In this document: one piece after another, positions 3,290-50,040 of the stretch
Layout of the letters: every line of letters begins with the position of its first letter
Position numbering within the stretch: position 1 is the first letter of the stretch
From: an uncultured Actinomycetes bacterium
GTDB lineage: Bacteria; Actinomycetota; Actinomycetes; Nanopelagicales; Nanopelagicaceae
DNA length: 64,000 bases
Assembly (NCBI GenBank): GCA_903827945.1
Contig: CAIKKN010000009.1
Location: 52,046-116,045 of the forward strand
Direction: 5' to 3'
Made by a program: the position numbers and the translations under genes
Notes under the pieces: model-generated
The model's input: only the letters and a program-made list of their open reading frames with translations
Database searches by the model: none
Told to the model about the DNA's origin: nothing

Positions 3290-3311
3290 CGTTACCGCCT
3301 ATTCACCTCTT
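3290..3311 (+). promoter_or_regulatory. Candidate PHO-box-like pair of 11-nt units (CGTTACCGCCT / ATTCACCTCTT) just upstream of the ppk ribosome-binding site
   Basis: TTCACCT core at 3302-3308, preceded 11 nt earlier by GTTACC. The same GTTCACCT word recurs upstream of two other P-related operons in this window. Confidence 0.3.
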
Positions 3312-3319
3312 TAAGGGAG

Positions 3320-3367
3320 AATAAGGGTATGCATTCGTACTCAAATAAGGGTATGCATTCGTACTCA
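3320..3367 (+). repeat. Perfect 24-bp tandem duplication (AATAAGGGTATGCATTCGTACTCA x2) spanning the ppk start codon
   Basis: Read directly: copy 1 is 3320-3343 and copy 2 is 3344-3367, with no mismatch. It is in frame (8 codons, NKGMHSYS) and gives two ATGs, at 3329 and 3353. Confidence 0.95.
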
Positions 3368-7341: not shown

Positions 7342-7416
7342 GCCTCCCTAGCTCAGTGGTAGAGCATCCGCCTTGTAAGCGGAAGGTCGTCAGTTCAATC
7401 CTGACGGGGGGCTCCA
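7342..7416 (+). tRNA. tRNA-Thr (anticodon TGT), CCA encoded
   Basis: Hand-folded cloverleaf. Acceptor GCCTCCC/GGGGGGC (one G-T pair). D arm GCTC-AGTGGTA-GAGC. Anticodon arm TCCGC-CTTGTAA-GCGGA. T arm GTCAG-TTCAATC-CTGAC. Discriminator T followed by CCA. Confidence 0.9.
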
Positions 7417-16458: not shown

Positions 16459-16491
16459 GTTAAGTGAACAATCAGTAGGTCGTAGGTGAAC
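16459..16491 (-). promoter_or_regulatory. Candidate PHO box: three 11-nt-phased units on the minus strand (GTTCACCTACG / ACCTACTGATT / GTTCACTTAAC) upstream of the ABC/GDPD operon
   Basis: The two GTTCAC cores are exactly 22 nt apart. The site is about 70-100 nt upstream of the SBP start. It overlaps a 16-nt near-palindrome, GTTCAGTTAAGTGAAC (16454-16469). Confidence 0.4.
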
Positions 16492-16517: not shown

Positions 16518-19500
16518 CTAGTGATCCAACCCACTGCAGATGGGCTTTGGTCCTCCATTAACGTTTCCGTAGCGATGATAAGTAATTGCAACGGATTGTT
16601 CTAGCAACCAACGCGGAGCTTCGATATCACCGCGTTGTGCCACAGGTCGAGTATCGAGTGACACGCCTTTTGCCATCAACTCCGCGCCCGGTGCTGTTTC
16701 ACTGGAAAGCCAGCGAACTTTAAATTGAGATCGCGAGATAAGTTCATCAAAGCTCTCGGCACTTGCCGTGCTCCACAATACTTCTGTACCGGTAATTTGC
16801 GCGATGTAGTTGATAAGTGAAATATCTTCATTTGAAGTCGAGTCATCTACTCGAACGATAATCGGCGCCAATGGCTTGCGATAGCGCTGGTAATTCTTCT
16901 CGACAGACAGCCCGGTAGCGTCAATTGCCTTGCTTCCAACCTTCTTCCACCATTCGTCTACCGACCATTTCGCGGCACGTGAATCTTGCAATGGAGACCA
17001 ATTGCGAAGTGCATGCACATAATTTGGGCCACCTGCTTTTGCGTTCGCGCCCACACTTGATCGCTTCCATCCGCCAAATGGTTGGCGTTGCACGATGGCG
17101 CCAGTAATTCCCCGGTTGATATATAGATTTCCCGCTTCAACAGAATCCATCCAAAGTGCACATTCATCTGCATCAAGTGAATGAATGCCTGCAGTCAATC
17201 CGAAATTCGTAGCGTTCTGCCATTCGATTGCAGTCTTCAGGTTTGGAGCAACCATCAATCCAAGCACTGGTCCGAACCATTCATTTTGATGGCTCCATGA
17301 GCCAGCTTTAATTCCAACTTTGACGCCAGGGCTCCAAAGCGTTCCTGCATCATCTAGCTGCTTTGGTTCAACCAACCATGACTCACCGTCATCAAGTGTT
17401 GTCAGTGCACGCAAAAGAGCACCTTCTGGCTTGCGGATGACCGCGCCGACTGTTGTCCCGAAGTCCCATCCTGCTCCAACTTTCAGAGTAGTAACGTCAT
17501 CAATGAGTTGTCGAATAAATGATGGATCCTTGTAAATGCTCTCCACAATAATTCCAAGAGAAGCGGCGCTACATTTTTGTCCTGCGTGCCCAAAGGCTGA
17601 TTGCACCAGGTCTTTCACTGCCGCATCGATATCAGCACACGCTGAAACTACGAGAGAGTTCTTACCACTTGTCTCTGCGAGAAGATTCAAATCAGATTTC
17701 CAACCTACAAACATATTTGCTGTTTCAAAAGCTCCGGTCAAAATAAGAGCTTGAACGCCATCATGGGTTACAAGGTGTTTTCCTGAATCATCGTCTCGGG
17801 TGGGAACAAATTGAAGGGCGTCATGTGGAACTCCACCTTCCCAAAGCTGCTGGGCCAATAGCCAAGCCGTTGCGACAGTTTCTGGGGCTGGCTTCAAAAT
17901 CACTGTATTTCCAGCTGCAAGGGCTGCGCAAACACCACCGGCTGGAATTGCGTATGGGAAGTTCCAAGGCGGAACAACAAGTACAACACCCATAGGTTTT
18001 GAGTCATTGTTTTCGACTCCAGTAGATGCGTAATAACGTGCAAAATCAATTGCTTCACTTACTTCAGGGTCAGCTTCTGAGACAGTCTTCCCGGCATCTC
18101 TAGACATAACCGCAATTGTGCGTGCACGTTGGGCATGCATAACGCTGGCAACGTTGAAAAGAATCTCCTGGCGCTCTGCAACACTCTTTGCGCCCCAAGA
18201 TGCCAAACCTTTTGCAGCAACTGAAACTGCCTTGTCAATGATCTTCTCGTTTGCTACGCAGTACGAATACCAAACAGTGCCATTGTCTCCAGGATCAGTT
18301 CCGTCCTCACACTGATTAGTCGTTACTTCATCGCCATTTATGACAATTGGAATTGTCATGTCATGTTTGCGAACGCGAGCAATTTCCTCTGTAATAGCCT
18401 TTATGTATGTAGGTTCTGTTGGATCGCCAGAGGATTGATTATGGAATGTTGAATAATCAACTGGATCTGGTTGGTGCCTTCGCGATTTAGTTGAAATCGC
18501 GTGGCGTTCGCGAACAGAATTCTCAAACCGAAGTTTCTGTTCTGCAAACTTCTTCGGGTTGCTTCCAATTTCAAATGCAGCCTTGAGATAATTTTCATCT
18601 GATGTGTTCTCATCCAAACGGCGAACAAGGTAGGCAACCGCAGACGCAAAATCATCTTTGTTTGTGACGGGAGTGTAAAAAAGAACATGGTGACCAGAAC
18701 GGGTTACAGCCAATGCTTCAGCATTCGCCATTCCTTCGAGCATTTCGATATCAAGCTGGTGTAAAACACCACGTGACCTAGCGACTTCAATCGCCCACGT
18801 TAAGTGAAATAGATTGTGAGAGGCGATTCCTATTCGAACAGCATGGGCATGTTCTGGGCGAAGTGCCACATCCACTAAACGCGAATAACTAGCGTCCACA
18901 TCTGACTTTGAGCCATAAGGGGCTGGAATGTATCCGTGCAACTCTCCCTCGGCCTTCTCCATCGCCAAGTTTGCACCTTTAACAAGACGAACCTTGATCG
19001 TGCCGCCTTGATCTTTGTGACGTTCCACAGCGAATGCCACAAGATCAGCGAATGCAGCATGTGATTCAGGAAGATATGCCTGCAAAACAATTCCAGCATG
19101 AATGTGGAGAAAGTTTTGTTCAGATAAAACACGCTTGAACGCATCAACTGTCAGTGCCAAATCGCGGAACTCTTCCATATCTAGATTGATGAAAGTTCCA
19201 TGTTCGTCGGCGGCCGTGTATATGGTTCGAAGTTTCGCACAAACTTTCTCGAGCGAACCGCTGTGATCGATTGTAATCATCTGGGCGACAACAGCTGAAA
19301 GTTTTACCGATATGTAATCAACTTCTGGGCGAGTGATCATTTCGAGAAGTCTTTCAAATCTTTCATCTGCTTCTCGTTGTCCAAGTACGGCTTCGCCAAG
19401 AACATTTATATTCAGACGAATTCCTTCTTCTTTTCGCTTTCCGAGGTGCTTGGAGAGTCGGTCTTGTTCTGCGGGAAGAATCAAATCTTTAGATAGCGCC

Positions 19501-19856
19501 CGCACGCGCTGATGAACCAGACGAACAACTAATCCAGGAAGCGCTATGGCGACAATGCGAATAAATTTCAACCCAAAAGCATTGAACGGCCCGAATCCCT
19601 TTACTGATGCTTTCTTCGCTGCATGATTAAAAATTGTGATGGCCTCGCGCATCGAGTGAATACGCATAACTTCGTCAGTCAAAGTAATAGTCACTTCAAT
19701 AGCTTTAGGATCCTTAAAAAGTCGACCAAAGCGCTTGCGATTCGCTTTCTCTCTGCGATTGCGAAGCTTTTCCGAAGTTTCAATCAATTCACGAGCGCGC
19801 TCCACAGAAGTTGTAGCAGTTTTGTCGATTGATTCATCGGTAAGCAGCGGTTCCAC
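16518..19856 (-). CDS. putA: bifunctional proline dehydrogenase / L-glutamate gamma-semialdehyde (P5C) dehydrogenase
   Basis: 1112 aa. The N-terminal half is proline-dehydrogenase-like. The C-terminal half is aldehyde dehydrogenase, with EPKQ-type GGKN (ETSGKNS) and catalytic-Cys (GQKCSA) motifs. No RHH DNA-binding domain is evident. Confidence 0.93.
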   Translation of the reverse strand: MEPLLTDESIDKTATTSVERARELIETSEKLRNRREKANRKRFGRLFKDPKAIEVTITLTDEVMRIHSMREAITIFNHAAKKASVKGFGPFNAFGLKFIRIVAIALPGLVVRLVHQRVRALSKDLILPAEQDRLSKHLGKRKEEGIRLNINVLGEAVLGQREADERFERLLEMITRPEVDYISVKLSAVVAQMITIDHSGSLEKVCAKLRTIYTAADEHGTFINLDMEEFRDLALTVDAFKRVLSEQNFLHIHAGIVLQAYLPESHAAFADLVAFAVERHKDQGGTIKVRLVKGANLAMEKAEGELHGYIPAPYGSKSDVDASYSRLVDVALRPEHAHAVRIGIASHNLFHLTWAIEVARSRGVLHQLDIEMLEGMANAEALAVTRSGHHVLFYTPVTNKDDFASAVAYLVRRLDENTSDENYLKAAFEIGSNPKKFAEQKLRFENSVRERHAISTKSRRHQPDPVDYSTFHNQSSGDPTEPTYIKAITEEIARVRKHDMTIPIVINGDEVTTNQCEDGTDPGDNGTVWYSYCVANEKIIDKAVSVAAKGLASWGAKSVAERQEILFNVASVMHAQRARTIAVMSRDAGKTVSEADPEVSEAIDFARYYASTGVENNDSKPMGVVLVVPPWNFPYAIPAGGVCAALAAGNTVILKPAPETVATAWLLAQQLWEGGVPHDALQFVPTRDDDSGKHLVTHDGVQALILTGAFETANMFVGWKSDLNLLAETSGKNSLVVSACADIDAAVKDLVQSAFGHAGQKCSAASLGIIVESIYKDPSFIRQLIDDVTTLKVGAGWDFGTTVGAVIRKPEGALLRALTTLDDGESWLVEPKQLDDAGTLWSPGVKVGIKAGSWSHQNEWFGPVLGLMVAPNLKTAIEWQNATNFGLTAGIHSLDADECALWMDSVEAGNLYINRGITGAIVQRQPFGGWKRSSVGANAKAGGPNYVHALRNWSPLQDSRAAKWSVDEWWKKVGSKAIDATGLSVEKNYQRYRKPLAPIIVRVDDSTSNEDISLINYIAQITGTEVLWSTASAESFDELISRSQFKVRWLSSETAPGAELMAKGVSLDTRPVAQRGDIEAPRWLLEQSVAITYHRYGNVNGGPKPICSGLDH

Positions 19857-19882
19857 GGTGTCCCAGTCTCTTGTTATAAAGT

Positions 19883-19904
19883 GTTCACCTAATCATCACC
19901 TAAA
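19883..19904 (+). promoter_or_regulatory. Candidate PHO box: two adjacent 11-nt direct repeats GTTCACCTAAT / CATCACCTAAA in the putA/FAD-oxidase divergent region
   Basis: TCACCTAA is repeated with exact 11-nt periodicity. The first unit carries the full GTTCACC core. The site lies 32 nt (ATG 19936) or 53 nt (ATG 19957) upstream of the oxidase gene. Confidence 0.45.
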
Positions 19905-19956
19905 AAGCAGCCTCAGCGCATCAGTACTTCACAAAATGAGCGTTAAATCTCTCACC

Positions 19957-21072
19957 ATGAAGCGGATTCTCGTAGTTGGCGGGGGGATTATCGGTTCTAT
20001 GCATGCCTACCTGGCGCTGAAAGCCGGACATGAAGTAATTCAGGTAGAACGCGACGAGGTCCCTAGCTCAGCCTCGGTTCGAAATTTTGGCCTTGTCTGG
20101 GTGAGCGGTCGTGAAAAAGGTGCAGAGCTTGAGCTTGCACTTCGAGCAAGAGAACTTTGGGGCGAAATTGGTTTAGAAGCTTCCATTGGATTTCGTGCTA
20201 ACGGTTCGCTAACAGTGGCCCAAAGTGATGTTGAATTTTCTCTCATGCAAGAAGCTGCCGCCATGCCTGATGCTGATCAGCGAGGTTTTGAAATTCTTCA
20301 CAAGCGTGAAGTTCAAGCTTTAGAACCAATGCTTGCGGGAAATTACATCGGCGCTCTTCGGTGCACAACCGATGCTGCCGTTGAGCCACTCCTTTTGCTT
20401 ACAGGATTAAGAGATTTCATGAAAAGAAGTGAGCGCTATACGTGGATTCCAAATTTTGATGTAGATAGCTTTACACATAACGAAAGCGGAAACCATATTT
20501 CGGATGTAACTGGGAAAACTATTTCCGGTGATTTCTTGGTTCTTTGTCCTGGCGCGGCGCATTCTGGCTTTCTTTCAGAGTACTTCAAAGATGCGCAAAT
20601 CCGAAAAGTATTTTTGCAAATGGGTGCCACGGTTCCAGTTGCTGAAAAACTTGGACACTCAGTAGCAGATGCGGACTCCATGCGTTATTACCCTGGCTTT
20701 AAGGATCTGTCGTTAGATCGTCTTCCTCCACAGTCAGAGCTTGCTCACGAGCATCACATGCAATTGTTGTTGGCTCCGCGATTCGATGGTTCATTTACAA
20801 TCGGTGATACGCATCTCTACAAAGAACCGTTTTCACATGAAATTATCGAAGAACCATACGAACACTTGAGTAAAGTCATCGCAAATATTTTTGGCCGTGA
20901 ATTCAAGATTGGCAAACGTTGGAGTGGGGTTTACAGTCAATCAACAAGCTCAGAAATCTATTTTCGCCGCGAAGTTGCACCTAGAGCGGTCATCGTGACT
21001 GGCGCAGGCGGCCGAGGAAATACTCTTTCACCAGCTATCGCAGAGGAGACAATCAAATCATGGGCGCTATAA
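19957..21072 (+). CDS. DAO-family FAD-dependent oxidoreductase of the type linked to phosphonatase-like genes (TIGR03364-like)
   Basis: Dinucleotide fold MKRILVVGGGIIGSMHAYLALKAGHEVIQVERD. The in-frame ATG 19936 is an alternative start. The ORF-track start 19735 overlaps putA. 13-nt overlap with the downstream PhnX-like gene. Confidence 0.8.
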   Translation: MKRILVVGGGIIGSMHAYLALKAGHEVIQVERDEVPSSASVRNFGLVWVSGREKGAELELALRARELWGEIGLEASIGFRANGSLTVAQSDVEFSLMQEAAAMPDADQRGFEILHKREVQALEPMLAGNYIGALRCTTDAAVEPLLLLTGLRDFMKRSERYTWIPNFDVDSFTHNESGNHISDVTGKTISGDFLVLCPGAAHSGFLSEYFKDAQIRKVFLQMGATVPVAEKLGHSVADADSMRYYPGFKDLSLDRLPPQSELAHEHHMQLLLAPRFDGSFTIGDTHLYKEPFSHEIIEEPYEHLSKVIANIFGREFKIGKRWSGVYSQSTSSEIYFRREVAPRAVIVTGAGGRGNTLSPAIAEETIKSWAL

Positions 21073-21752
21073 AACTCGTTGTTTTTGATGTAGCAGGCAC
21101 GACCGCAAAGGATGACGGCCTTGTTGTGAAGGCTTTTCGTGAATCAATGATTGAGCAAGGAATTGAGCGTGGATCCGCAGACTTGGCAGCCATGGAGAAA
21201 TATGTGATTGACACTATGGGTCAACGAAAAATGGATGTTTTTATGCACTTATGTGAGGGCGACGCGATTGCGGCCCAAGCCACTCACGAGATATTTATTG
21301 AGCAATACAACAACCTGGTGGCTAACGGTGAATTAGAAGAGTTTGAAGGCATTTCTCAACTCTTTGCAACTTTGCGCGCGAGCAACATTGGAGTGGCCAT
21401 CACGACAGGATTTCCTCGTGAGTTATTGACTGCAATCTTGAACGATCTCGATTGGCGCGATCGCATTGATCTCAGTGTGGCGTCGGATGAAGTCGCCGCG
21501 GGACGTCCAGCTCCTGACATGATTTTCCGTTCCATTGACTTGTATCGCAATCTTTCAAATCAGGAAATTGAACCAAGCAACGTAATAGTTGTTGGTGATA
21601 CGCAATCAGATATGGAAAGTGGAGTGAGCGCAGGTGCACGCTTTGTCGTCGGCGTAACTTCAGGGGCTCACAACGAGCTACAGCTAAAGGCGGCCGGTGC
21701 AACCCATGTGTTTACCGGAGCGGCTCAGTTGTTATCTCTTGTTAACGATTAA
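21060..21752 (+). CDS. phosphonatase-like HAD hydrolase (PhnX-like, TIGR03351-like)
   Basis: Motif I is DxAGT (VVFDVAGTT) rather than DxDxT. Cap-domain Lys in TMGQRKMD. Arg-type motif III AAGRPAPD. Motif IV VGDTQSDMESG. These are the deviations that distinguish phosphonoacetaldehyde-hydrolase-type enzymes from generic HADs. Confidence 0.8.
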   Translation: MGAIKLVVFDVAGTTAKDDGLVVKAFRESMIEQGIERGSADLAAMEKYVIDTMGQRKMDVFMHLCEGDAIAAQATHEIFIEQYNNLVANGELEEFEGISQLFATLRASNIGVAITTGFPRELLTAILNDLDWRDRIDLSVASDEVAAGRPAPDMIFRSIDLYRNLSNQEIEPSNVIVVGDTQSDMESGVSAGARFVVGVTSGAHNELQLKAAGATHVFTGAAQLLSLVND

Positions 21753-21864
21753 TTTACCTAGAACCCAAGAGTTAACCGACTAGTCGTCCAAATCAACCTT
21801 GCTTATTACCCCCGCTTTAACTTGCAGGTCTTTGATGCAACTACCAATCTCATAAGGGGGATTT

Positions 21865-23049
21865 ATGCGCAAGCGTTTACTTACAGGAGTTATCGCAGCC
21901 ACCGTGGCCGTAACTTCTTTAGTAGCAGTATCTAGCTCACAGGCAGCATCGATTGATTATTCCAAGTGCACAGACCTTAAGTCATGTGGCGGAATGGATG
22001 CTCTAGTAAAGGCAGCACAAAAAGAAGGCAAGCTCAATGTCATTACCATTCCTCGCGACTGGGCAAATTACGGAGAAGCACTTGACCTCTTCACAAAGGC
22101 TTTCGGAATCAAAATCGCTGATGACAATCCAGATGGATCTTCAGCATACGAAATTCAAACAGTAAAGACAGCTCCTAAGTCAAAGGCTCCAGATGCAGTT
22201 GACGTAGGTATCACATACGGCGCAGATAACGTAAACCTTTTTGCTCCTTACAAGGTTGCAACATGGAAAGATATTCCTGCACAGTGGAAAGAAGCTTCAG
22301 GACGTTGGGCTGGCGATTACTACGGCCAGATCGCACTTGCTTATGACACCTCAGTTACAAAAGCTCCTAAGTCATTTGCTGATCTGAAAGATCCTGCATT
22401 CAAGGGTCAAGTTGCTATTGGTGGAGATCCAACCGGCGCACAGGAAGCTTTGATGTCAGTATTCGCAGCGAATCTTGCTTCAGGTGGAACACCTGCAAAT
22501 ATCCAACCTGGCATTGATTACTTCAAGGGCCTCAAGGCTTCAGGTAACTTCGTTTCAGTTCTTGCAAACGGACAGAACCTCGCAGCTGGTGCCTACAAAG
22601 TTTCATTCTCATGGGACTTCAATGGCCCAGGAGCAATTGCTTCTGCAGCAAAGATCGGTAAGACCATCAAGTATGTAATTCCTACTGATGCTGTCATCAA
22701 GGGAACTCCATACATTATGGCGATTCCATTCAATGCTCCACACCCAGCAGCAGCTCGCTTGTGGTCTGAATTCCTATACTCACAGAACAAGGGCAAGACA
22801 TCAGCAACTCTTGGATCTGTAAAGGGCCTTTCAGGAAGCAAGATTTTCGCTTCAATTCAAGGTGGACAGAACATCTGGATTTCAGGTGCAGCTCACCCAA
22901 TCACAGAAGCAGCTATGAAGACAAAGGGCTTGGCAATTAACCCACCAGCAGGATTTGAAACTCCAGCAGGCGCAACGGTTGTTCTCCCAACACCAGATCA
23001 GCAAACAGCTGCTAAGGAACTTCTAAAGACACAATGGCCAAACCTCTAG
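21865..23049 (+). CDS. ABC transporter solute-binding protein (family 1; aminoalkylphosphonate/iron-type)
   Basis: 394 aa. Signal peptide MRKRLLTGVIAATVAVTSLVAVSSSQAAS. SD AAGGGGGA precedes the ATG. Confidence 0.85.
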   Translation: MRKRLLTGVIAATVAVTSLVAVSSSQAASIDYSKCTDLKSCGGMDALVKAAQKEGKLNVITIPRDWANYGEALDLFTKAFGIKIADDNPDGSSAYEIQTVKTAPKSKAPDAVDVGITYGADNVNLFAPYKVATWKDIPAQWKEASGRWAGDYYGQIALAYDTSVTKAPKSFADLKDPAFKGQVAIGGDPTGAQEALMSVFAANLASGGTPANIQPGIDYFKGLKASGNFVSVLANGQNLAAGAYKVSFSWDFNGPGAIASAAKIGKTIKYVIPTDAVIKGTPYIMAIPFNAPHPAAARLWSEFLYSQNKGKTSATLGSVKGLSGSKIFASIQGGQNIWISGAAHPITEAAMKTKGLAINPPAGFETPAGATVVLPTPDQQTAAKELLKTQWPNL

Positions 23050-23074
23050 TTCGTTAGATCTAGATAGGGGAGAA

Positions 23075-23932
23075 GTGGGAGACATGAGATTTAAGAAATA
23101 CTCATGGCTTCCACTTCTTCCTTTTTTTCTGTTTACTGGATATTTCTTACTCTGGCCGATTTTGGGAGTGACTCTTAGATCTCTGCATGATAATCATGGA
23201 AATTGGTCTCTCAGTAACTACACCCCACTTTTATCCGGCGCTTACCGCCACGCATTTGTTACAAGCATTCGTCTCAGCGTCATAACATCGGTTATTAGTT
23301 CTCTCCTTGGTGCTTTTTTCACATTAGTAATTGTTAAGAACGCTAGTTCAAGACTTACATCAATCATTGAGAGCGTTGCTGCAGTATTTGCAAACTCAGG
23401 TGGTGTGCCACTCGCATTTATGTATATTGCGGCATTTGGCGCCGAAGGTATGTTTACCAAGATTCTTAAATTTTTCGGCTGGGATATTTATGCCGGCCAC
23501 TTCACCTTATTTTCATTTACTGGCGTTGTGCTGGTTTATACATTCTTTATGACTCCACTCATGATTATTGTCTTTAGACCCGCGATCTTAGGATTGCGAA
23601 AGGAATGGTCTGAGGCAAGCCTCAATCTTGGCGCAACGAATCTGACATATTGGCGGCGAGTTGCAATACCAATTCTGACCCCGTCATTCATCGGGTCCTT
23701 TTTCTTACTTTTTGCCGGAGCATTCTCCGCTTATGCCACCGCTCGTGCGTTAACAGTGGGAACAGTGCCACTGGTACCAATCATCATTGGAACTCTTGTT
23801 GACGGAAATGTCATTTCTGATCAAGCAAATCTTGGAGATGCCCTTGCTGTAGGAATGATCTTTGTTGCGGGCATTGCCATGATTGGATATATATGGGCAC
23901 AACGTTCCGCAGCGAAATGGCGGCAGTCATGA
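23075..23932 (+). CDS. ABC transporter permease
   Basis: 285 aa and multi-TM. EAA-like loop (WSEASLNLGATNLTYWRRVAIP). GTG start 5 nt after GGGGAG. Confidence 0.88.
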   Translation: MGDMRFKKYSWLPLLPFFLFTGYFLLWPILGVTLRSLHDNHGNWSLSNYTPLLSGAYRHAFVTSIRLSVITSVISSLLGAFFTLVIVKNASSRLTSIIESVAAVFANSGGVPLAFMYIAAFGAEGMFTKILKFFGWDIYAGHFTLFSFTGVVLVYTFFMTPLMIIVFRPAILGLRKEWSEASLNLGATNLTYWRRVAIPILTPSFIGSFFLLFAGAFSAYATARALTVGTVPLVPIIIGTLVDGNVISDQANLGDALAVGMIFVAGIAMIGYIWAQRSAAKWRQS

Positions 23933-24717
23933 AAATTGGAAAATATTCGGTCAATGCATTTTCACTCTTCTTGGCGGGAACAATCTTTTTCCTCCCGTTG
24001 GTCGCTGCAGCAGAATTTAGTTTTAGAAAGCCGGGAGGCAAAGGTCACTCTTTTGTTAACTACACCTGGCTCCTTCAACAGGATGGTTTCTGGCCGGCTC
24101 TAGGTGCTTCGTTCCGCTTAGCAGTTCTATCTGGAGCGCTCAATCTGATTTTGATGGTTCCCACAATGGTTGTGCTGAATCTGAAAGCGAAGCGTTTCAA
24201 GTCAATTGTAGATTTCATTTGCATTCTTCCACTCATTATTCCAGTCGTATCTCTTGCAATTGGCGCACAGGTTTCGATGCCAGAATTCCTACAAAATACA
24301 GATTACGAACTTGTCTTCTTTTTTGTGATTGTTGCTCTTCCTTACACTTACCGAGCACTCGATTCTGCAATTAGCGCTGTAGATATTAAAGTCTTAGTTG
24401 AGGCATCTAGAAGCCTTGGAGCTAGCTGGTTCTCGACAATCATGAAGGTAATAATTCCTGCGATACGTACAGGAATCATCGGCTCCCTATTTCTCTCATT
24501 CGCCTTGGCAGTTGGAGAATTTACTTTGACTTCACTTCTTCACTGGGACACATTTCCTACTTGGACAGTCGTCGCAGCGCAGCAAAATATTCTGGGAGCG
24601 ATTGCGATTTCTGTCTTTTCTTTTGCACTCGCAATCTTTGTCCTGACATCAGTCGGAATATTGTCCGCGCGAAAGAAGAGTTTGAATTTAGTAATAGAAA
24701 CAGAAGAGGTGGAATAA
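23929..24717 (+). CDS. ABC transporter permease
   Basis: Start moved to ATG 23929 (ATGA overlap with the upstream stop). EAA-like loop (LVEASRSLGASWFSTIMKVIIP). Confidence 0.88.
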   Translation: MKIGKYSVNAFSLFLAGTIFFLPLVAAAEFSFRKPGGKGHSFVNYTWLLQQDGFWPALGASFRLAVLSGALNLILMVPTMVVLNLKAKRFKSIVDFICILPLIIPVVSLAIGAQVSMPEFLQNTDYELVFFFVIVALPYTYRALDSAISAVDIKVLVEASRSLGASWFSTIMKVIIPAIRTGIIGSLFLSFALAVGEFTLTSLLHWDTFPTWTVVAAQQNILGAIAISVFSFALAIFVLTSVGILSARKKSLNLVIETEEVE

Positions 24718-24719
24718 AA

Positions 24720-25790
24720 ATGGCAAAGCAACGATCTAGTAGCACTCTCAAGCTCGAAGGTGTTAGTCGCGCTTTTGGAACCACCCTTGCCTTAGATGGC
24801 TTAGACCTAACGGTTGAACCTGGCGAGCTTGTAGCTCTTCTCGGACCATCTGGGTGCGGAAAGACGACTGCGCTTCGAATTGTTGCAGGTCTTGAAACCG
24901 CTGACAGTGGTTCACTTCTCGTAAACGGGGTTCGGTATAACGAAACTCCGGTAAATGAACGAGATATGGGAATGGTCTTTCAGGCGTATTCACTCTTCCC
25001 AAATATGACTGTTGCAGAAAATATTGACTACGGCCTTCGCGCTCGAAAGATGGATCTTGCGAAGCGGATGAAGCAAGTGCGTAAGATGCTTCAACTAGTT
25101 GATCTTGAAGAGAAGAGCACTCGCTACCCCCACCAATTATCGGGTGGTCAACAGCAACGCGTTGCACTTGCCCGAGCACTTGCTATCGAACCGACTGTTC
25201 TATTACTCGATGAACCACTTTCCGCTCTTGATGCTCAAGTACGTTCACAAATTCGTGAGGAAATTCGCGCGATTCAGTTGGAGCTAGGAATCACAACTTT
25301 GTTTGTAACCCACGACCAAGAAGAAGCAATGGCAATCGCTGATCGCGTCGGTGTGATGAATAAAGGAAAATTAGAACAAATTGATAAGCCAACAATTCTC
25401 TACAACGAACCAGCAACTCCTTTTGTTGCATCATTTGTTGGGCAAGCAAACCGACTTCCTGCGACTATCACCGGTAAAGGTAATGTGAAAGTACTTCACC
25501 AAAAGATTTCACTTTCAAGGCATTCTTCCGATCTTCGTGACGGATTACCGGTAGAGGCGCTTATTCGCCCGGAGTCGATCACTTTAACCTCCGAGCAGGA
25601 TGAGGATGCAACTAACGGCTTGCTTATTTCTAAGTCATTCCTTGGCCCACTGACCAAGTTGGGTATCGCAGTCGAAGGCTTACCAATCGTGCATATCAAC
25701 TCACAAAGTAAAGATGTTAAAAGCCTAGAAATTGGCGACCGGATTTCATTCAAAATTGTTGCTGATGAAATCATGGCAAGAAATGTCTAA
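24720..25790 (+). CDS. ABC transporter ATP-binding protein
   Basis: Start at ATG 24720 after SD GAAGAGGTGG. Walker A GPSGCGKTT, signature LSGGQQQRVALARAL, Walker B LLLDEP. The ORF-track start 24561 lies inside the permease gene. Confidence 0.92.
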   Translation: MAKQRSSSTLKLEGVSRAFGTTLALDGLDLTVEPGELVALLGPSGCGKTTALRIVAGLETADSGSLLVNGVRYNETPVNERDMGMVFQAYSLFPNMTVAENIDYGLRARKMDLAKRMKQVRKMLQLVDLEEKSTRYPHQLSGGQQQRVALARALAIEPTVLLLDEPLSALDAQVRSQIREEIRAIQLELGITTLFVTHDQEEAMAIADRVGVMNKGKLEQIDKPTILYNEPATPFVASFVGQANRLPATITGKGNVKVLHQKISLSRHSSDLRDGLPVEALIRPESITLTSEQDEDATNGLLISKSFLGPLTKLGIAVEGLPIVHINSQSKDVKSLEIGDRISFKIVADEIMARNV

Positions 25791-27348
25791 TTTTGATTCT
25801 CGCGTCACAAAAATCGTTCGTGGGACAGCGAACGACAAAGGTTGGCGCAACCTGGAATTGGGTGAAGGTGAAGCCATTGAGGGGGTTTCACCTTCGTCCA
25901 ATGCCGAATCACTCTTAAGCCTTGTTCATATTTCAGATTTACATATTTGTGATGCGCAATCACCTGCTCGTTTAGAGTTACTTGATCGCCTAGCAGATCC
26001 TCATAATCCGATGTCAGAGATTGTGAAGTTAGTCGGTACATATCGTCCTAATGAAATGTTGACGACTCAAACGCTTGAGGCAATGGTCCAAACGATCAAC
26101 AGAATTGATCACGGAGTAGTAACAAATCGGCCAATTGATGCTGTCGTTGTCACGGGTGATGTGACGGACAATGCACAAGGAAATGAATTGGATTGGTATT
26201 TCACACTGATGGATGGAGGGGAACTTCTTCCAGACAGCGGTGATGCGTCCAGGTGGGAGGGACTTTCTTCGAACGATCCTGAAAGGTATGACACTTCATA
26301 TTGGAATCCGGATGGGACTCCCGAAGGCTGCGAAGATGATTTTCCAAGGTCTCTATACGGATTTCCCGTCGTCCCAGGGTTGCATGATGCGGTCAGAAAA
26401 AGTTTTGCTGCAACAGGATTGCGGCATAAGTGGTTTGCCACTCACGGAAACCATGACGCGCTGATTCAAGGCACGCTTCCGGGAGATGAAGCTGTTCGCA
26501 ATCACGCTGTAGGTTCTGAGAAACAGATTGCCCTTGCACCAGATACAGACCTATCCGAACTCTTTGCAAACTTTAACCAGGTTGGTCCAGTGACATACCC
26601 AGATCCACACGGAGCAGTGTTTAGAGAAATTACACCAGATCCTCGTCGACGGATTAATGAGCCTGACTCGTGGGCAAAAGTTCATCAGGTGTGTAATCAC
26701 GACCATGGACTAAATGAAGAGAACTCTTTGCGCGCTACCAAGTACTGGTACAGGGATATAAATGGGGTCAGGCTAGTTTCCTTGGATACCGTGAATCATC
26801 ATGGAGGTTGGCAAGGCTCTCTGGATCAATCACAATTTGAGTGGCTGAAAAAAGTATTGACAGATAAAGAACCCAAATATTTTGTAATTCTCTCGCACCA
26901 TCCCTCTTCGACACTTTTCAATCTGTACCAGCCCGAAGGTAGCGACAACAGAGTGGGCGAAACAGAGGTTGTTGAATTGCTGATGAATGAACCTCGAGTC
27001 ATTCTCTGGCTTGCGGGGCATAATCATGAACACAAGATTGAACGCTATGGCGATGAGTTTTCAGGATTTTGGCATATTCAAACCGCTTCAAACATCGATT
27101 GGCCTCAACAAGGACGGCTAGTTGAAATTCTCAAGGATGGAGAGAAAGTTGTTATTGCGACATCAGTCTTTGATCACCAAAGTCCCGTATCTCTTGACGA
27201 TGCGACAAGCAATATCGATAGCCCAGTCAATCTTGCCGGACTGTCTCGAGTGCTTGCAGCCAATGATTGGCAGCGCCGTAGCGGGGAATTCGATATCGAG
27301 AATTTAGCTGGTGAAAAATCTGACCGAAATCGTTTCCTCTGGTTGTAG
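25783..27348 (+). CDS. calcineurin-like metallophosphoesterase with long inserts (PPA1498/TIGR03767-like); no signal peptide seen
   Basis: Metallophosphoesterase blocks VHISDLHICD, VVTGDVTDN, ATHGNHDA, LSHHP and AGHNHEH. ATG 25783 overlaps the ATPase stop by 8 nt (ATGTCTAA). The N-terminus MSNFDSRVTKIVRGT has no twin-arginine or hydrophobic signal. Confidence 0.8.
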   Translation: MSNFDSRVTKIVRGTANDKGWRNLELGEGEAIEGVSPSSNAESLLSLVHISDLHICDAQSPARLELLDRLADPHNPMSEIVKLVGTYRPNEMLTTQTLEAMVQTINRIDHGVVTNRPIDAVVVTGDVTDNAQGNELDWYFTLMDGGELLPDSGDASRWEGLSSNDPERYDTSYWNPDGTPEGCEDDFPRSLYGFPVVPGLHDAVRKSFAATGLRHKWFATHGNHDALIQGTLPGDEAVRNHAVGSEKQIALAPDTDLSELFANFNQVGPVTYPDPHGAVFREITPDPRRRINEPDSWAKVHQVCNHDHGLNEENSLRATKYWYRDINGVRLVSLDTVNHHGGWQGSLDQSQFEWLKKVLTDKEPKYFVILSHHPSSTLFNLYQPEGSDNRVGETEVVELLMNEPRVILWLAGHNHEHKIERYGDEFSGFWHIQTASNIDWPQQGRLVEILKDGEKVVIATSVFDHQSPVSLDDATSNIDSPVNLAGLSRVLAANDWQRRSGEFDIENLAGEKSDRNRFLWL

Positions 27349-47761: not shown

Positions 47762-48544
47762 TTAAATTCCAGCTTTACATGCAAGGGTGCGAAGGTTTAA
47801 AGCTTGTGTTGCACCTTCTGCAATTTGAGTAGAAACAGTCGCTTGTGAAGCGTTACTTGCATCGAGCTGAGTTTGCATTGTTGCAATCTGCGAAACTGCG
47901 CGAGCACGATCTGAATCTATTTTTGGACTAATCTTTGAATAATTGTCGAGCTGGCGTCCGTATGTGGTCAAGCTTGTTGAATAACCAGCTGCGGCTTTGG
48001 TCCAGTTTGCCTTATCTGTTGCAGAGACGGTTGTAACCGCTGCTTGCTTAAGCGCGTTGTCGCGCTTTACTGTGATTTCGGCGATTTTTGCAGTCAACTC
48101 TGTGATTGCAGCCGTGATACCAGTTGCTTTATGCATGGTCTTTGTTGTTGGGTCAGTCCACAGCGGATAAAGGTTTGTTTCGAGTGCTGCTTTCTTTTGA
48201 TCAAGAAGGACAACTACGTTCTTCCACGATGCAACGCTTGCTGTCATCTTTGTGATTGCAGCTGCTTGTTGTGATGTGAAGCTATCGCTATCTTTCTTGG
48301 TTGCAAGATAAGTCTTTGCTGCGGTTACGCAATCTGTAGTGACCCAAACCAACTTCTTGCTGGTTGTCGCGGGGTTAACTTGGCAAACGTAGGAGTTCTT
48401 GCCTGACTTTGCTTTCAGGCCTGACTTTGCACACGCAGCGCCTTGCTTAACGGCTGCAGCGTGAACAGGAGCGGCAACGCCGGCAATGAGCACGACGGCC
48501 ATGAGACCGATTGGGGCAATTTTCTTGGTTACCTTATTAAACAC
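47762..48544 (-). CDS. secreted hypothetical protein, Ala/Thr/Lys-rich with four Cys
   Basis: Signal peptide KKIAPIGLMAVVLIAGVAAPVHA. No recognisable catalytic motif. Start moved to GTG 48544, 5 nt after GGAGG. Confidence 0.6.
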   Translation of the reverse strand: MFNKVTKKIAPIGLMAVVLIAGVAAPVHAAAVKQGAACAKSGLKAKSGKNSYVCQVNPATTSKKLVWVTTDCVTAAKTYLATKKDSDSFTSQQAAAITKMTASVASWKNVVVLLDQKKAALETNLYPLWTDPTTKTMHKATGITAAITELTAKIAEITVKRDNALKQAAVTTVSATDKANWTKAAAGYSTSLTTYGRQLDNYSKISPKIDSDRARAVSQIATMQTQLDASNASQATVSTQIAEGATQALNLRTLACKAGI

Positions 48545-48729
48545 ATTAACCTCCATAGATTATGGGTCGAAGTCTAAGGCAGGGCCTCGGCTCTGCTCTG
48601 GAGATTGCCGCCGTACAAGGCGAGAATTTCCTGTGAATAGTTCCTTAAAAGTTCCTTGTCAGGGCAAATAGACGGGTCTAGACTGAAAAATCTACAGAAA
48701 GCGAAGTTAATCCTCATGAGGGGCCAACA

Positions 48730-49956
48730 ATGAAGGCGCTAGTAATTGGCGCGGGCGGAGTTGGCAGAGCTATCGCCAATATCGCCTCGCGCAAGAAATT
48801 CATCACATCTATGGTCGTTGCCGATCGCGAGCTCTCTCGGGCTGAAGGCGCCGTGACGCGCCTCAAGGACCCACGCTTTTCAGCAGCAGAAGTCAATGCG
48901 GCCGAACTTGAAGATCTTCGCGATCTCATTCGCAAAGTAAAGCCGGATATCGTCATCAACGCCGTGGATCCACGTTTTGTAATGCCAATCTTTTTAGCGT
49001 GTGAAATTGAAAGCACTAATTACATAGATATGGCTATGTCTCTTTCGCGCCCGCATCCTCATTACCCAAATTCTGAAACTGGCGTAAAACTTGGCGATGA
49101 ACAATTCGCTCGCGATTGGAATTGGAAGGAACGCGATATTTTTGCATTAGTCGGAATGGGAATTGAACCTGGAATGAGCGATGTTTTTGCTCGCTACGCC
49201 TCTGATCATCTTTTCTCTCGACTTGATTCAGTCATGATTCTAGATGGATCAAATCTCACAGTTGAAGGTTACGAATTTGCGCCGTCATTTTCGATTTGGA
49301 CCACCATCGAAGAATGTCTCAATCCTCCCATCGTTTGGGAAGATGGTCGCGGTTGGTACACAACTGAGCCATTTAGCGAACTCGAGATTTTTGATTTCCC
49401 CGAGGGAATTGGCCCCGTTGAATGCGTGAACGTCGAGCACGAGGAAGTAATCCTTATTCCTCAAAAAGTTGATGCAAAGAAAGTCAATTTCAAATACGGA
49501 CTAGGCGCGCAATTCATCACAACGCTCAAGACTATTCATATGCTTGGATTTGATCGCAAGGATCACGTCGACGTTCAAGGCATATCTGTTTCACCAAGAG
49601 ATTTGCTTGCTGCGTCCCTTCCAGATCCAGCAACTTTAGGTTCTCGCATGAAGGGCAAGACTTGTGCCGGAGCCCTTATCAAAGGGTTGGATAAAGCTGG
49701 CAAACCTTATGCATGCTACTTATATAACGTTGTTGATAATGAATGGTCGATGAAGGAATATGGCGATCAAGCAGTTGTTTGGCAGACAGCAATTAATCCA
49801 GTCATTGCAATGGAATTAATCCACAATGGAACGTGGAAGCCCGAAGGTGTTGCTGGGCCTGAATGGTTTGATGCAAAGCCATTCTTAGATTCTTTAGAGT
49901 CCTATGGCACAACATGGAATCTTCGCGAGGAAAGCGTTGAAGGAATCGTTCCTTAA
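48730..49956 (+). CDS. saccharopine dehydrogenase-family NAD(P)-binding protein
   Basis: 408 aa. N-terminal MKALVIGAGGVGRAIANIA Rossmann motif. Overall architecture is that of saccharopine/carboxynorspermidine dehydrogenases. Confidence 0.8.
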   Translation: MKALVIGAGGVGRAIANIASRKKFITSMVVADRELSRAEGAVTRLKDPRFSAAEVNAAELEDLRDLIRKVKPDIVINAVDPRFVMPIFLACEIESTNYIDMAMSLSRPHPHYPNSETGVKLGDEQFARDWNWKERDIFALVGMGIEPGMSDVFARYASDHLFSRLDSVMILDGSNLTVEGYEFAPSFSIWTTIEECLNPPIVWEDGRGWYTTEPFSELEIFDFPEGIGPVECVNVEHEEVILIPQKVDAKKVNFKYGLGAQFITTLKTIHMLGFDRKDHVDVQGISVSPRDLLAASLPDPATLGSRMKGKTCAGALIKGLDKAGKPYACYLYNVVDNEWSMKEYGDQAVVWQTAINPVIAMELIHNGTWKPEGVAGPEWFDAKPFLDSLESYGTTWNLREESVEGIVP

Positions 49957-49967
49957 TTTAGAAATTG

Positions 49968-50040
49968 TGTCCTAGGCGGGAGTTGAACCTGCGACCTACC
50001 GCTTAGGAGGCGGTTGCTCTATCCACTGAGCTACTAGGAC
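49968..50040 (-). tRNA. tRNA-Arg (anticodon CCT), CCA not encoded
   Basis: Minus-strand cloverleaf. Acceptor GTCCTAG/CTAGGAC. D arm GCTC-AGTGGATA-GAGC. Anticodon arm ACCGC-CTCCTAA-GCGGT. T arm GCAGG-TTCAACT-CCCGC, with one A-C mismatch. Confidence 0.85.

What the first reader, a model, noticed from the sequence alone, without database searches (positions are those of the whole stretch)
19883..19904. PHO-box-like pair of 11-nt direct repeats in the putA / phosphonate-cluster divergent promoter
GTTCACCTAAT and CATCACCTAAA are adjacent, and TCACCTAA repeats with exact 11-nt phase. Actinomycete PhoP operators are arrays of 11-nt direct repeat units with a conserved GTTCACC-type core, which the first unit matches fully.

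The site would sit at about the -35 position if transcription starts near ATG 19936. That would make the oxidase mRNA leaderless and favour the 19936 start.

The same GTTCACCT word appears upstream of the glycerophosphodiester-type ABC operon (16484-16491, minus strand). TTCACCT appears upstream of ppk (3302-3308). A weaker pair, GTTAACC...TCAACCT, spaced 22 nt apart, precedes the second solute-binding protein gene (21771-21799).
Basis: partly seen in the sequence, partly recalled or inferred. Interest (0 to 1): 0.6.

Follow-up and report, generated by a model that had tools for sequence, protein, structure and literature searches.

The report
Phosphate-starvation operator before a phosphonate operon
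The two adjacent 11-base repeats are very probably the docking site through which the cell's phosphate-starvation regulator switches on an operon for importing and breaking down aminoethylphosphonate; this is an ordinary, well-conserved member of a known kind of switch.

Summary
GTTCACCTAAT (19883-19893) and CATCACCTAAA (19894-19904) are adjacent, and TCACCTAA repeats at exactly 11 nt.

An 8-nt repeat at that spacing is not rare on its own: there are 29 in the 1.5-Mb genome. The context makes it significant.
- **Conservation:** a two-unit motif, (A/G)TTCAYCT-n3 then nnTCAYCT-n3, precedes orthologues of the downstream PbfD-like oxidase gene in several genera, whatever gene lies upstream. putA orthologues elsewhere lack it.
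- **Same units at pst:** GTTCACC units in 11-nt phase precede pstC in the 28 relatives whose pstC upstream DNA was read.
- **Same geometry:** in both promoter sets the last unit ends exactly 27 nt before a -10 hexamer.
- **Genome-wide rank:** with a matrix built only from relatives, the site ranks 6th of 3.0 million positions. Three of the five sites above it are pst sites.
- **Regulator:** a RegX3 orthologue sits next to phoU, 2 kb upstream of the window.

I conclude this is a PhoP/RegX3-type PHO box activating the pbfD-phnX-ABC operon (confidence about 0.8).

The conserved geometry places the -10 at CAAAAT (19932-19937), which contains ATG 19936. That gives a transcription start near 19944 and a start codon at ATG 19957.

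Binding and phosphate response remain untested. This is a new member of a known kind, of modest interest.

The parts
19883..19893 (+). PHO-box unit 1, GTTCACCTAAT (promoter-distal, strong)
   Evidence: It scores 10.6 bits with the matrix built only from relatives' pstC units and 12.1 bits with the combined matrix. T3, C4 and A5 are invariant in 16 of 16 non-redundant orthologous boxes.
19894..19904 (+). PHO-box unit 2, CATCACCTAAA (promoter-proximal, weaker; C1 and A2 deviate from the consensus)
   Evidence: It scores -0.2 bits with the pst-only matrix and 6.1 bits with the combined matrix. In orthologues A5 is kept in 16/16, C4 in 14/16 and T3 in 13/16, while position 2 is A, G or T.
19905..19931 (+). 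27-nt spacer between the box and the predicted -10
   Evidence: The length is fixed at 27 nt in pbfD-like orthologues and in pstC promoters, while its sequence is not conserved.
19932..19937 (+). Predicted -10 hexamer CAAAAT (contains ATG 19936); the predicted transcription start is near 19944 (inferred)
   Evidence: a hexamer ending in AT lies at exactly +28 to +33 after the box in 17 of 21 orthologues. CAAAAT is kept in L002 and L027 although the bases just before it differ. CAAAAT also serves as the -10 hexamer in ppk promoters of relatives.
19957..21072 (+). PbfD-like FAD-dependent amine oxidase gene (TIGR03364 family). Start ATG 19957 is favoured; the in-frame ATG 19936 is an alternative.
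   Evidence: Pfam DAO. TIGR03364 scores 272.5 bits against a cut-off of 285.1. Orthologues start at MKR..VVGGG. The family's function is taken from PMC10590968.
21060..21752 (+). PhnX-like phosphonatase-type HAD hydrolase gene
   Evidence: TIGR03351 scores 193.2 bits against a cut-off of 218.9. Pfam HAD_2.
21771..21836 (+). Internal promoter before the solute-binding-protein gene. It consists of unit GTTAACCGACT (21771-21781), two further 11-nt units that do not match the unit consensus in register (21782-21803), a 27-nt spacer, and the hexamer TTTGAT (21831-21836).
   Evidence: The architecture is gapless in 11 orthologues: a GTTAAC unit, then nnTCACC or TAACC, then a third unit, then 27 nt, then TTnnnT.
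21865..27348 (+). 2-aminoethylphosphonate-type ABC importer (SBP, two permeases, ATPase) followed by a TIGR03767 metallophosphoesterase
   Evidence: PhnT2 scores 401.5 bits and TIGR03767 scores 361.2 bits, above its cut-off.
16518..19856 (-). putA (proline dehydrogenase / P5C dehydrogenase), the divergent neighbour. The box lies 27 nt upstream of its GTG start, over its likely -35 and spacer.
   Evidence: putA orthologues elsewhere in the family have no such box, so the box is not a putA operator by descent.

Best explanation
**What it is.** The 22 bases at 19883-19904 are a two-unit PHO box. It is an operator made of two head-to-tail 11-nt direct-repeat units, read by the phosphate-starvation response regulator of this actinobacterium.

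**The regulator.** It is the RegX3/PhoP orthologue encoded beside phoU at G000:C9:49269-49964, about 2 kb upstream of the window.

**How it most likely works (inferred).**
- Under phosphate limitation the phosphorylated regulator binds the strong distal unit (GTTCACC).
- It then binds the weaker proximal unit (CATCACC) cooperatively.
- The box would span about -61 to -40 relative to the transcription start.
- From there the regulator recruits RNA polymerase to a promoter that has no -35 element. The promoter's -10 is CAAAAT at 19932-19937.
- Transcription then starts near 19944 and runs into the PbfD-like oxidase gene (start ATG 19957), the PhnX-like hydrolase and, probably, the AEP-type ABC importer and phosphoesterase.
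- A second, weaker box of the same design before the binding-protein gene (21771-21836) gives the transporter its own input.

**Shown here:**
- the repeat itself;
- its conservation in orthologous promoters;
- its likeness to the pst boxes;
- the fixed 27-nt geometry;
- the presence of the regulator.

**Inferred:** binding, activation, the transcription start, and operon continuity.
For: **1. Sequence.** Two adjacent 11-nt units carry TCACCTAA in exact phase. Unit 1 matches the Streptomyces unit consensus G(G/T)TCAYYYR(G/C)G at positions 1-9 (consensus from PMC2275107).

**2. Same regulon signal in this genome.**
- pstC is preceded by TTTCACCATTC GTTCACCTTCT GTTAACTAATG.
- pstS is preceded by GTTTACCTGTT GTTCACCTTGA.
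- In the 28 relatives whose pstC upstream region was read, three GTTCACC-type units precede pstC.

**3. Footprint across relatives.**
- 26 of 151 family genomes carry the oxidase gene.
- In 16 non-redundant promoters from several genera, T3, C4 and A5 of unit 1 are invariant and A5 of unit 2 is invariant.
- The upstream neighbour differs among these genomes: mostly a co-directional gene, and putA only in this lineage.

**4. Cross-prediction.**
- A 22-nt matrix made only from other genomes' oxidase promoters ranks the window site 1st of 3.0 M positions (24.3 bits; the next scores 17.9). It places pstC 21st and pstS 33rd.
- A unit matrix built only from relatives ranks the site 6th. The top six are pstC twice, pstS, one intragenic site, an arsC-upstream site, and this site.

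**5. Same promoter geometry.**
- In pstC promoters the last unit is followed by 27 nt, an nAnnAT hexamer, 6-7 nt, and then GTG.
- In 17 of 21 oxidase promoters the last unit is followed by 27 nt and a hexamer ending in AT.
- The window has CAAAAT at exactly that place.
- When geometry and a downstream ORF are added to the scan, the top three hits are pstC, an arsC-upstream site whose hexamer falls inside the coding sequence, and this site.

**6. Regulator.**
- The response regulator beside phoU matches M. tuberculosis RegX3 (2oqr) at E = 1.3e-107, against 1.4e-62 for MtrA.
- PhoU scores above its NCBIfam cut-off, and the kinase's best matches are PnpS and PhoR.

**7. No consensus sigma-70 promoter** is found in 19750-20050, as expected for an activator-dependent promoter.

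**8. Function fits.** The operon encodes a PbfD-type oxidase, a PhnX-like hydrolase and an AEP-type importer (PMC10590968). This is a phosphorus-scavenging pathway.
Against: - **Unit 2 is a poor match.** It begins with CA. A at position 2 never occurs in 75 pst units of relatives, and the unit scores -0.2 bits with that matrix.
- **Streptomyces precedent.** In S. coelicolor, an A at position 2 abolished PhoP-DBD binding to a promoter until it was changed to T (PMC2275107).
- **Different tails.** The oxidase boxes have A-rich tails (TAAA) and A at position 1. The pst boxes have TTC tails and G or T at position 1. A related but different regulator is therefore not excluded.
- **Other candidate regulators.** Five other OmpR-family regulators are encoded, including a GlnR-like orphan and MtrA. 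In Streptomyces the GlnR and PhoP sites overlap (PMC3561978, title and abstract only).
- **Awkward predicted start.** A start near 19944 leaves a leader of about 13 nt without a Shine-Dalgarno sequence.
- **Hand selection.** I picked the orthologous boxes by eye before scoring them.
Confidence: 0.8

Rival explanations
1. The repeats are read by another OmpR-family regulator that also binds 11-nt direct repeats. Candidates are the GlnR-like orphan (G000:C9:41273-41980) or MtrA. Control would then follow nitrogen status or the cell cycle rather than phosphate. AEP is also a nitrogen source, and putA is next door.
For: - Six OmpR-family regulators are encoded. One has the atypical GlnR-like receiver and one is MtrA, scoring above its cut-off.
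- Unit 2 (CATCACC) and the A-rich tails differ from pst units.
- Competition between PhoP and GlnR for overlapping sites is known in Streptomyces (PMC3561978 and PMC2691820).
Against: - The amtB promoter of this genome carries TAAC/AAAC-type words (TTAAC-n6-GTAAC and GTAACGAAAC), not TCACC.
- Unit 1 is identical to the central pst unit core GTTCACCT.
- The 27-nt spacing to the -10 is the same as at pstC.
- Matrices built from the oxidase promoters retrieve pstC and pstS, not nitrogen genes.
Confidence: 0.09
2. The box is primarily an operator of the divergent putA gene. It would be either a repressor site over the putA -35 and spacer or an activator site, and its position before the oxidase gene would be incidental.
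For: The box lies 27 nt upstream of the putA GTG (19856). It lies over the region where the putA -35 would sit if TATAAC (19878-19873, minus strand) is the putA -10 (inference).
Against: - Seventeen putA orthologues located elsewhere in relatives have no two-unit box.
- The box follows the oxidase gene into genomes where the upstream neighbour is a different, co-directional gene.
- A secondary, lineage-specific effect on putA remains possible.
Confidence: 0.04
3. The repeat is a chance duplication, or a remnant of slippage, with no regulatory role.
For: Exact 8-nt repeats at offset 11 occur 29 times in the genome, at chance level. Good two-unit matches also occur inside genes, for example at 23500-23521 and G000:C33:51181.
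Against: - The motif is kept in at least 16 diverged promoters while flanking bases are not.
- Its distance to a -10-like hexamer is fixed.
- It is the 6th best of 3.0 M positions.
Confidence: 0.03

Closest known systems
Streptomyces coelicolor PHO boxes (PhoP operators made of 11-nt direct-repeat units; class I operators with two units, such as pstS and phoA; Sola-Landa et al. 2008, PMC2275107)
   Same: - The units are consecutive and 11 nt long, with a GTTCAY core.
- At least two units lie on the coding strand upstream of a phosphate-scavenging gene.
- A strong core unit sits beside a weaker one.
- The regulator gene pair lies beside a divergent phoU.
   Different: - Unit 2 has C1 and A2, which abolished binding in Streptomyces tests.
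- The tails are A/T-rich in a 47% G+C genome.
- The box ends a fixed 27 nt before the -10. ppk uses a second register, 5 nt before the -10.
- The target is a PbfD-PhnX phosphonate operon. I found no report of such an operon as a PhoP target in the papers I searched.
Mycobacterium tuberculosis / M. smegmatis SenX3-RegX3 phosphate-starvation system
   Same: The regulator here is the closest relative of RegX3 among solved structures (2oqr, E = 1.3e-107). The kinase and regulator genes are adjacent.
   Different: I did not retrieve or test the RegX3 DNA motif here. Any likeness of the operator to mycobacterial sites rests on memory only.
Escherichia coli PhoB Pho box (7 conserved + 4 variable nt per 11-nt unit, placed about 10 nt upstream of the -10; geometry from my own knowledge)
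   Same: The units are direct repeats one helical turn apart. The box replaces the -35 function. Phosphonate utilisation genes belong to the regulon.
   Different: - The core word differs: CTGTCAT versus GTTCACC.
- At this promoter the box lies two turns further upstream.
- Only the ppk-type promoters of this family show the E. coli-like position.
PbfD-PhnX hydrolytic AEP pathway (Zangelmi et al. 2023, PMC10590968)
   Same: The controlled genes are a TIGR03364-type FAD oxidase next to a PhnX-type hydrolase, with no phnW in the cluster. pbfD genes outside the PbfD1 subgroup are described this way, most commonly with phnX alone.
   Different: Both proteins score just under the NCBIfam cut-offs. 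The paper says nothing about regulation: 'Pho box' and 'Pho regulon' occur 0 times in it.

Membership tests
Actinobacterial PHO box (PhoP/RegX3 operator) | At least two consecutive direct-repeat units of exactly 11 nt | tested here: met
   Units lie at 19883-19893 and 19894-19904. TCACCTAA repeats with a spacing of 11.
Actinobacterial PHO box (PhoP/RegX3 operator) | Units match the consensus G(G/T)TCAYYYR(G/C)G, with at least one well-conserved core unit | tested here: met
   Unit 1 matches positions 1-9. It scores 10.6 bits with a matrix of 75 pst units from relatives; the genome-wide frequency of units at or above 10 bits is 2.4e-4.
Actinobacterial PHO box (PhoP/RegX3 operator) | In a two-unit operator the second unit is also well conserved, especially positions 1-2 | tested here: inconclusive
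   - Unit 2, CATCACCTAAA, keeps positions 3-9 but has C1 and A2.
- It scores -0.2 bits with the pst matrix.
- A at position 2 blocked binding in S. coelicolor (PMC2275107).
- Yet orthologous boxes keep A, G or T there in several genera.
Actinobacterial PHO box (PhoP/RegX3 operator) | The same motif stands before the canonical target (the pst operon) in the same organism | tested here: met
   This genome has units before pstC and pstS, and 28 relatives have them before pstC. The spacing of 27 nt to the -10 is identical.
Actinobacterial PHO box (PhoP/RegX3 operator) | The cognate two-component system is present | tested here: met
   phoU, a PhoR/SenX3-like kinase and a RegX3 orthologue lie at G000:C9:47380-49964.
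Actinobacterial PHO box (PhoP/RegX3 operator) | The site is enriched before phosphorus genes rather than spread at random | tested here: met
   Of the six best positions in the genome, four precede pst or this operon and one precedes arsC. Matrices built from oxidase promoters retrieve pstC and pstS within the top 33 of 3.0 M positions.
Actinobacterial PHO box (PhoP/RegX3 operator) | The regulator binds the site (EMSA, footprint, ChIP) and expression depends on phosphate and on the regulator | not testable with these tools
PbfD-PhnX aminoethylphosphonate pathway (the controlled genes) | A TIGR03364-family FAD oxidase adjacent to a PhnX-type hydrolase | tested here: inconclusive
   Best NCBIfam hits are TIGR03364 at 272.5 bits (cut-off 285.1) and TIGR03351 at 193.2 bits (cut-off 218.9). 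The genes overlap at 21060-21072. Enzyme activity was not tested.

The most novel reading that the evidence does not exclude
**Two fixed positions for the box.** The phosphate regulon of this family of small-genome actinobacteria may be built on a rigid two-position rule.
- At pstC, phoU, the oxidase gene and the binding-protein gene, the box ends 26-27 nt before the -10.
- At ppk, and possibly arsC, it ends exactly two units closer, 5 nt before the -10.
- Many of the transcripts are leaderless.

**A shared box in this lineage.** A rearrangement has placed one such box back-to-back with the putA promoter, over its -35 and spacer. The same bound regulator could then switch on phosphonate use and shut down proline catabolism. 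That would be a hard-wired phosphorus-to-nitrogen link.
Probability: 0.3. Interest if true: 0.45.

Novelty: new member of a known kind. Interest (0 to 1): 0.3.

Why it matters
- **Ecology.** Phosphorus limits many lakes, and the organism looks like a small-genome freshwater actinobacterium. A clear operator, and the small regulon it defines, says which scavenging routes these cells switch on together. The regulon comprises pst, phoU, ppk, a glycerophosphodiester-type importer and the AEP oxidase-phosphonatase operon.
- **A testable marker.** The site gives a sequence that can be looked for in metatranscriptomes.
- **Regulation of the PbfD-PhnX route.** It supplies the first regulatory hypothesis for this route. 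The paper that defined its enzymes does not mention Pho regulation.
- **Annotation.** It corrects the likely start codon of the oxidase gene.
- **No new mechanism.** PHO boxes of this type are well known in other actinobacteria.

Tried and rejected
- **Matrix from this genome's own units.** A matrix made from only eight units of this genome (pstC, pstS, phoU-phoR) was overfitted and did not list the site among the top 60. I replaced it with matrices from relatives.
- **Crude ORF-based gene calls.** They mislabelled the spacer as coding because of mutual trimming of putA and the oxidase ORF. I did not use them for an intergenic/intragenic enrichment figure. I used position counts and inspected the top hits by hand.
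- **Genome-contig scan.** It returned a single close relative, L027.
- **Leaderless start at ATG 19936.** Rejected. No conserved -10 lies 6-7 nt before it in L001, L002 or L027. The conserved geometry puts the -10 over that ATG.
- **putA operator.** Rejected.
- **Structured RNA.** No Rfam family lies near the site. The window holds only two tRNAs, at 7342-7413 and 49968-50040.
- **G000:C11:55 hit.** This high-scoring hit lies at a contig end in sequence that looks like a structured RNA gene, not a promoter (not verified).
- **arsC and corA sites.** They do not fit the 27-nt geometry. I left them as leads.

Full report
**1. The observation**

GTTCACCTAAT lies at 19883-19893 and CATCACCTAAA at 19894-19904. 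The repeat finder reports TCACCTAA at 19885-19892 and 19896-19903, with a spacing of 11.

The repeat lies in the 79-nt gap between the GTG start of putA (19856, minus strand) and the first ATG of the oxidase frame (19936).

The repeat by itself is not remarkable:
- Exact repeats of 8 nt or more at offset 11 occur 29 times in the 1.50-Mb genome, like other offsets that are not multiples of three.
- TCACC-n6-TCACC occurs 8 times.

Whether the site means anything therefore depends on context.

**2. The genes around it**

| Coordinates | Strand | Gene | Evidence |
|---|---|---|---|
| 16518-19856 | minus | putA | Pro_dh + Aldedh domains, |
| from 19936/19957 | plus | FAD oxidase | best NCBIfam hit TIGR03364, 272.5 bits, cut-off 285.1 |
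| 21060-21752 | plus | PhnX-like hydrolase | TIGR03351, 193.2 bits, cut-off 218.9 |
| 21865-25790 | plus | AEP-type ABC importer | PhnT2, 401.5 bits |
| to 27348 | plus | TIGR03767 metallophosphoesterase | above cut-off |

TIGR03364 is the family that Zangelmi et al. 2023 named PbfD. They showed that it oxidises 2-aminoethylphosphonate and its N-methyl form to phosphonoacetaldehyde, which is the substrate of PhnX. They also note that pbfD genes outside the PbfD1 subgroup usually sit with phnX alone (PMC10590968). That paper does not discuss regulation.

Also in the window are ppk, a Nudix/His-phosphatase gene, ppx, and an ABC operon ending in a GDPD-IMPase fusion.

**3. The regulator**

The window is G000:C9:52046-116045. 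About 2 kb upstream lie three genes:
- phoU at C9:47380-48030, minus strand. It scores above its NCBIfam cut-off.
- A histidine kinase at 48172-49272, whose best hits are PnpS and PhoR.
- An OmpR-family response regulator at 49269-49964.

The regulator matches M. tuberculosis RegX3 (2oqr) at E = 1.3e-107, against 1.4e-62 for MtrA.

Five other OmpR-family regulators exist. One has an atypical GlnR-like receiver and one is MtrA.

**4. The canonical target carries the same units**

The pst genes lie on contig C13 in the order pstC-pstA-pstB-pstS.
- Upstream of pstC: TTTCACCATTC GTTCACCTTCT GTTAACTAATG.
- Upstream of pstS: GTTTACCTGTT GTTCACCTTGA.

In the 28 relatives of the same family whose pstC upstream region I read, the same three units precede pstC. 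This is the classical actinobacterial PHO-box word. The Streptomyces consensus is G(G/T)TCAYYYR(G/C)G in 11-nt units, and at least two units are needed for binding (PMC2275107).

**5. The box travels with the oxidase gene, not with putA**

The oxidase gene is present in 26 of 151 family genomes. After I oriented the loci, a two-unit motif appears upstream of the gene in several genera. Its form is (A/G)TTCAYCT-n3 then nnTCAYCT-n3.

In 16 non-redundant boxes:
- In unit 1, T3, C4 and A5 are invariant.
- In unit 2, A5 is invariant, C4 is kept in 14 and T3 in 13.

The upstream neighbour is mostly a co-directional gene. It is putA only in this lineage (L001, L002, L027). Seventeen putA orthologues located elsewhere have no two-unit box.

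**6. Cross-prediction**

- A 22-nt matrix built from 15 oxidase promoters of other genomes ranks the window site first of 2,999,824 positions (24.3 bits; the next scores 17.9). It places pstC 21st and pstS 33rd. A hit at that level in a given 200-nt upstream stretch has a chance of about 0.002.
- Conversely, a unit matrix built from relatives' pst units gives unit 1 a score of 10.6 bits and unit 2 a score of -0.2 bits.
- A unit matrix pooled from relatives' pst and oxidase promoters, with this genome left out, ranks the pair sixth in the genome. The six best are pstC twice, pstS, one intragenic site, a site before an arsC-type gene, and this site.

That criterion is not met, so the finding stands.

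**7. Promoter geometry**

I anchored the sequences on the boxes.
- **pstC promoters:** the three units are followed by 27 nt, a hexamer of the form nAnnAT (GAGTAT, CACTAT, CAGGAT and others), 6-7 nt, and then the GTG start. The pstC mRNA therefore appears to be leaderless.
- **Oxidase promoters:** in 17 of 21, the two units are followed by 27 nt and a hexamer ending in AT (TGAGAT, TGAAAT, TCTGAT, TCTCAT, CAAAAT). In the same genus this is usually followed by 6 nt and the ATG.

The spacer sequences are not conserved, but the spacer length is. That the pst and oxidase promoters share this spacing argues that the same regulator acts at both.

In the window:
- The hexamer is CAAAAT at 19932-19937.
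- It is kept in L002 and L027, although the bases just before it differ.
- The ATG at 19936 is part of this hexamer.
- Transcription would then start near 19944, and the box would span about -61 to -40.
- The first start codon in the mRNA would be ATG 19957, which gives MKRILVVGGG as in the orthologues.

A 13-nt leader without a Shine-Dalgarno sequence is a weak point of my model, and only a mapped 5' end can settle it. No consensus sigma-70 promoter is found in the gap, as expected for an activator-dependent promoter.

**8.

- **ppk.** CGTTACCGCCT ATTCACCTCTT (3290-3311) is followed by 5 nt, GAGAAT (3317-3322), 6 nt and ATG 3329. More than 20 relatives show the same arrangement. This register places the box exactly two units closer to the -10.
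- **ugp-like operon.** GTTCAC cores 22 nt apart are kept in two genera.
- **Binding-protein gene.**
  - GTTAACCGACT (21771-21781) is the first unit of a conserved internal box.
  - Eleven orthologues align without gaps over a GTTAAC unit, an nnTCACC or TAACC unit, a third unit, 27 nt, and a TTnnnT hexamer.
  - In the window units 2 and 3 do not match the unit consensus in register, and the hexamer is TTTGAT (21831-21836).
- **Intragenic TTCACCT.** The word at 23501-23507 is part of a good two-unit match (17.9 bits, 7th in the genome). Its meaning is open. Inert intragenic PhoB sites are common in E. coli (PMC10294691, abstract).

**9. Rivals**

- **GlnR or MtrA binding.**
  - This is the main alternative. 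These regulators also read 11-nt-phased words, and unit 2 is atypical.
  - In S. coelicolor an A at position 2 abolished PhoP-DBD binding.
  - Against it, the amtB promoter here carries TAAC/AAAC-type words.
  - Unit 1 equals the central pst core.
  - The geometry equals that of pstC.
- **putA operator.** Excluded by descent. In this lineage, however, the box does lie over the likely putA -35 and spacer, so a side effect on putA is possible. This is inference only.
- **Chance.** Excluded by conservation.

**10. Comparison and novelty**

This is a PHO box of the Streptomyces/RegX3 kind, and a new member of it. It stands in an uncultured small-genome actinobacterium and in front of a PbfD-PhnX phosphonate operon.

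I found nothing on Pho boxes in these freshwater actinobacteria in the library. The PbfD paper contains no mention of a Pho box or Pho regulon.

The fixed 27-nt and 5-nt registers and the many leaderless starts are modestly interesting details.

Confidence in the main explanation is about 0.8. Interest is 0.3.

Noticed in passing
window 3290-3331: ppk has its own conserved two-unit box (CGTTACCGCCT ATTCACCTCTT). It is followed by 5 nt, GAGAAT, 6 nt and ATG 3329. More than 20 relatives show the same layout, so ppk looks leaderless, with a box exactly two units closer to the -10 than at pstC.
   Followed up: yes
window 3320-3367: A 24-nt tandem duplication, AATAAGGGTATGCATTCGTACTCA x2, covers the ppk start. 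It gives two in-frame ATGs (3329 and 3353) and a repeated MHSYS peptide. I did not look for this duplication in the orthologue regions I printed.
   Followed up: no
window 21771-21836: An internal promoter stands before the binding-protein gene. It has a GTTAAC unit, two units that do not match the consensus in register, 27 nt, and TTTGAT. Eleven orthologues align over it without gaps. The transporter half of the cluster may therefore be transcribed on its own.
   Followed up: yes
window 16459-16491 (minus strand): The ugp-like/GDPD operon has GTTCAC cores 22 nt apart with a non-matching unit between them. The same 22-nt arrangement is kept in relatives of two genera.
   Followed up: partly
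window 23500-23521: CTTCACCTTAT TTTCATTTACT inside the first permease gene is the 7th best two-unit match in the genome. It could be an inert intragenic site or an internal operator. Conservation was not checked.
   Followed up: no
G000:C13:13063-17352 (outside the window): The pst genes are ordered pstC-pstA-pstB-pstS, with a separate box before pstS. The pstC mRNA appears leaderless with a GTG start in the 28 relatives examined. pstC is divergent from an oligoribonuclease-like gene.
   Followed up: partly
G000:C9:48069-48090 (outside the window, minus strand): The phoU promoter reads GTTCAGGCGCT GTTAACAATAA, then 26 nt, TACCCT, 6 nt and ATG. This is a weak box with nearly the same geometry. 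phoU may also be leaderless.
   Followed up: no
G000:C17:33835-33856 and G000:C6:107866-107887 (outside the window): Good two-unit matches lie 17 nt before the ATG of an arsC-type arsenate reductase gene (GTTCATCGAGC GTTCACTTTCC) and of a corA-type gene (GTTCACCTTGC GTTTGCCTCTA). The arsC site has the ppk-like register: box, 5 nt, TTTACT, 6 nt, ATG.
   Followed up: no
G000:C9:41273-41980 and G000:C29:57421-57534 (outside the window): A GlnR-like orphan response regulator is encoded 10 kb upstream of the window. The amtB-glnK-glnD promoter carries TTAAC-n6-GTAAC and GTAACGAAAC, which are candidate GlnR boxes.
   Followed up: no
G000:C24:95610-95631 (outside the window): GTTCACCTTTC TGGCATCTAGT lies 63 nt before the glutamate synthase large-subunit gene. 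It is a possible point of phosphate-nitrogen cross-talk, or chance.
   Followed up: no
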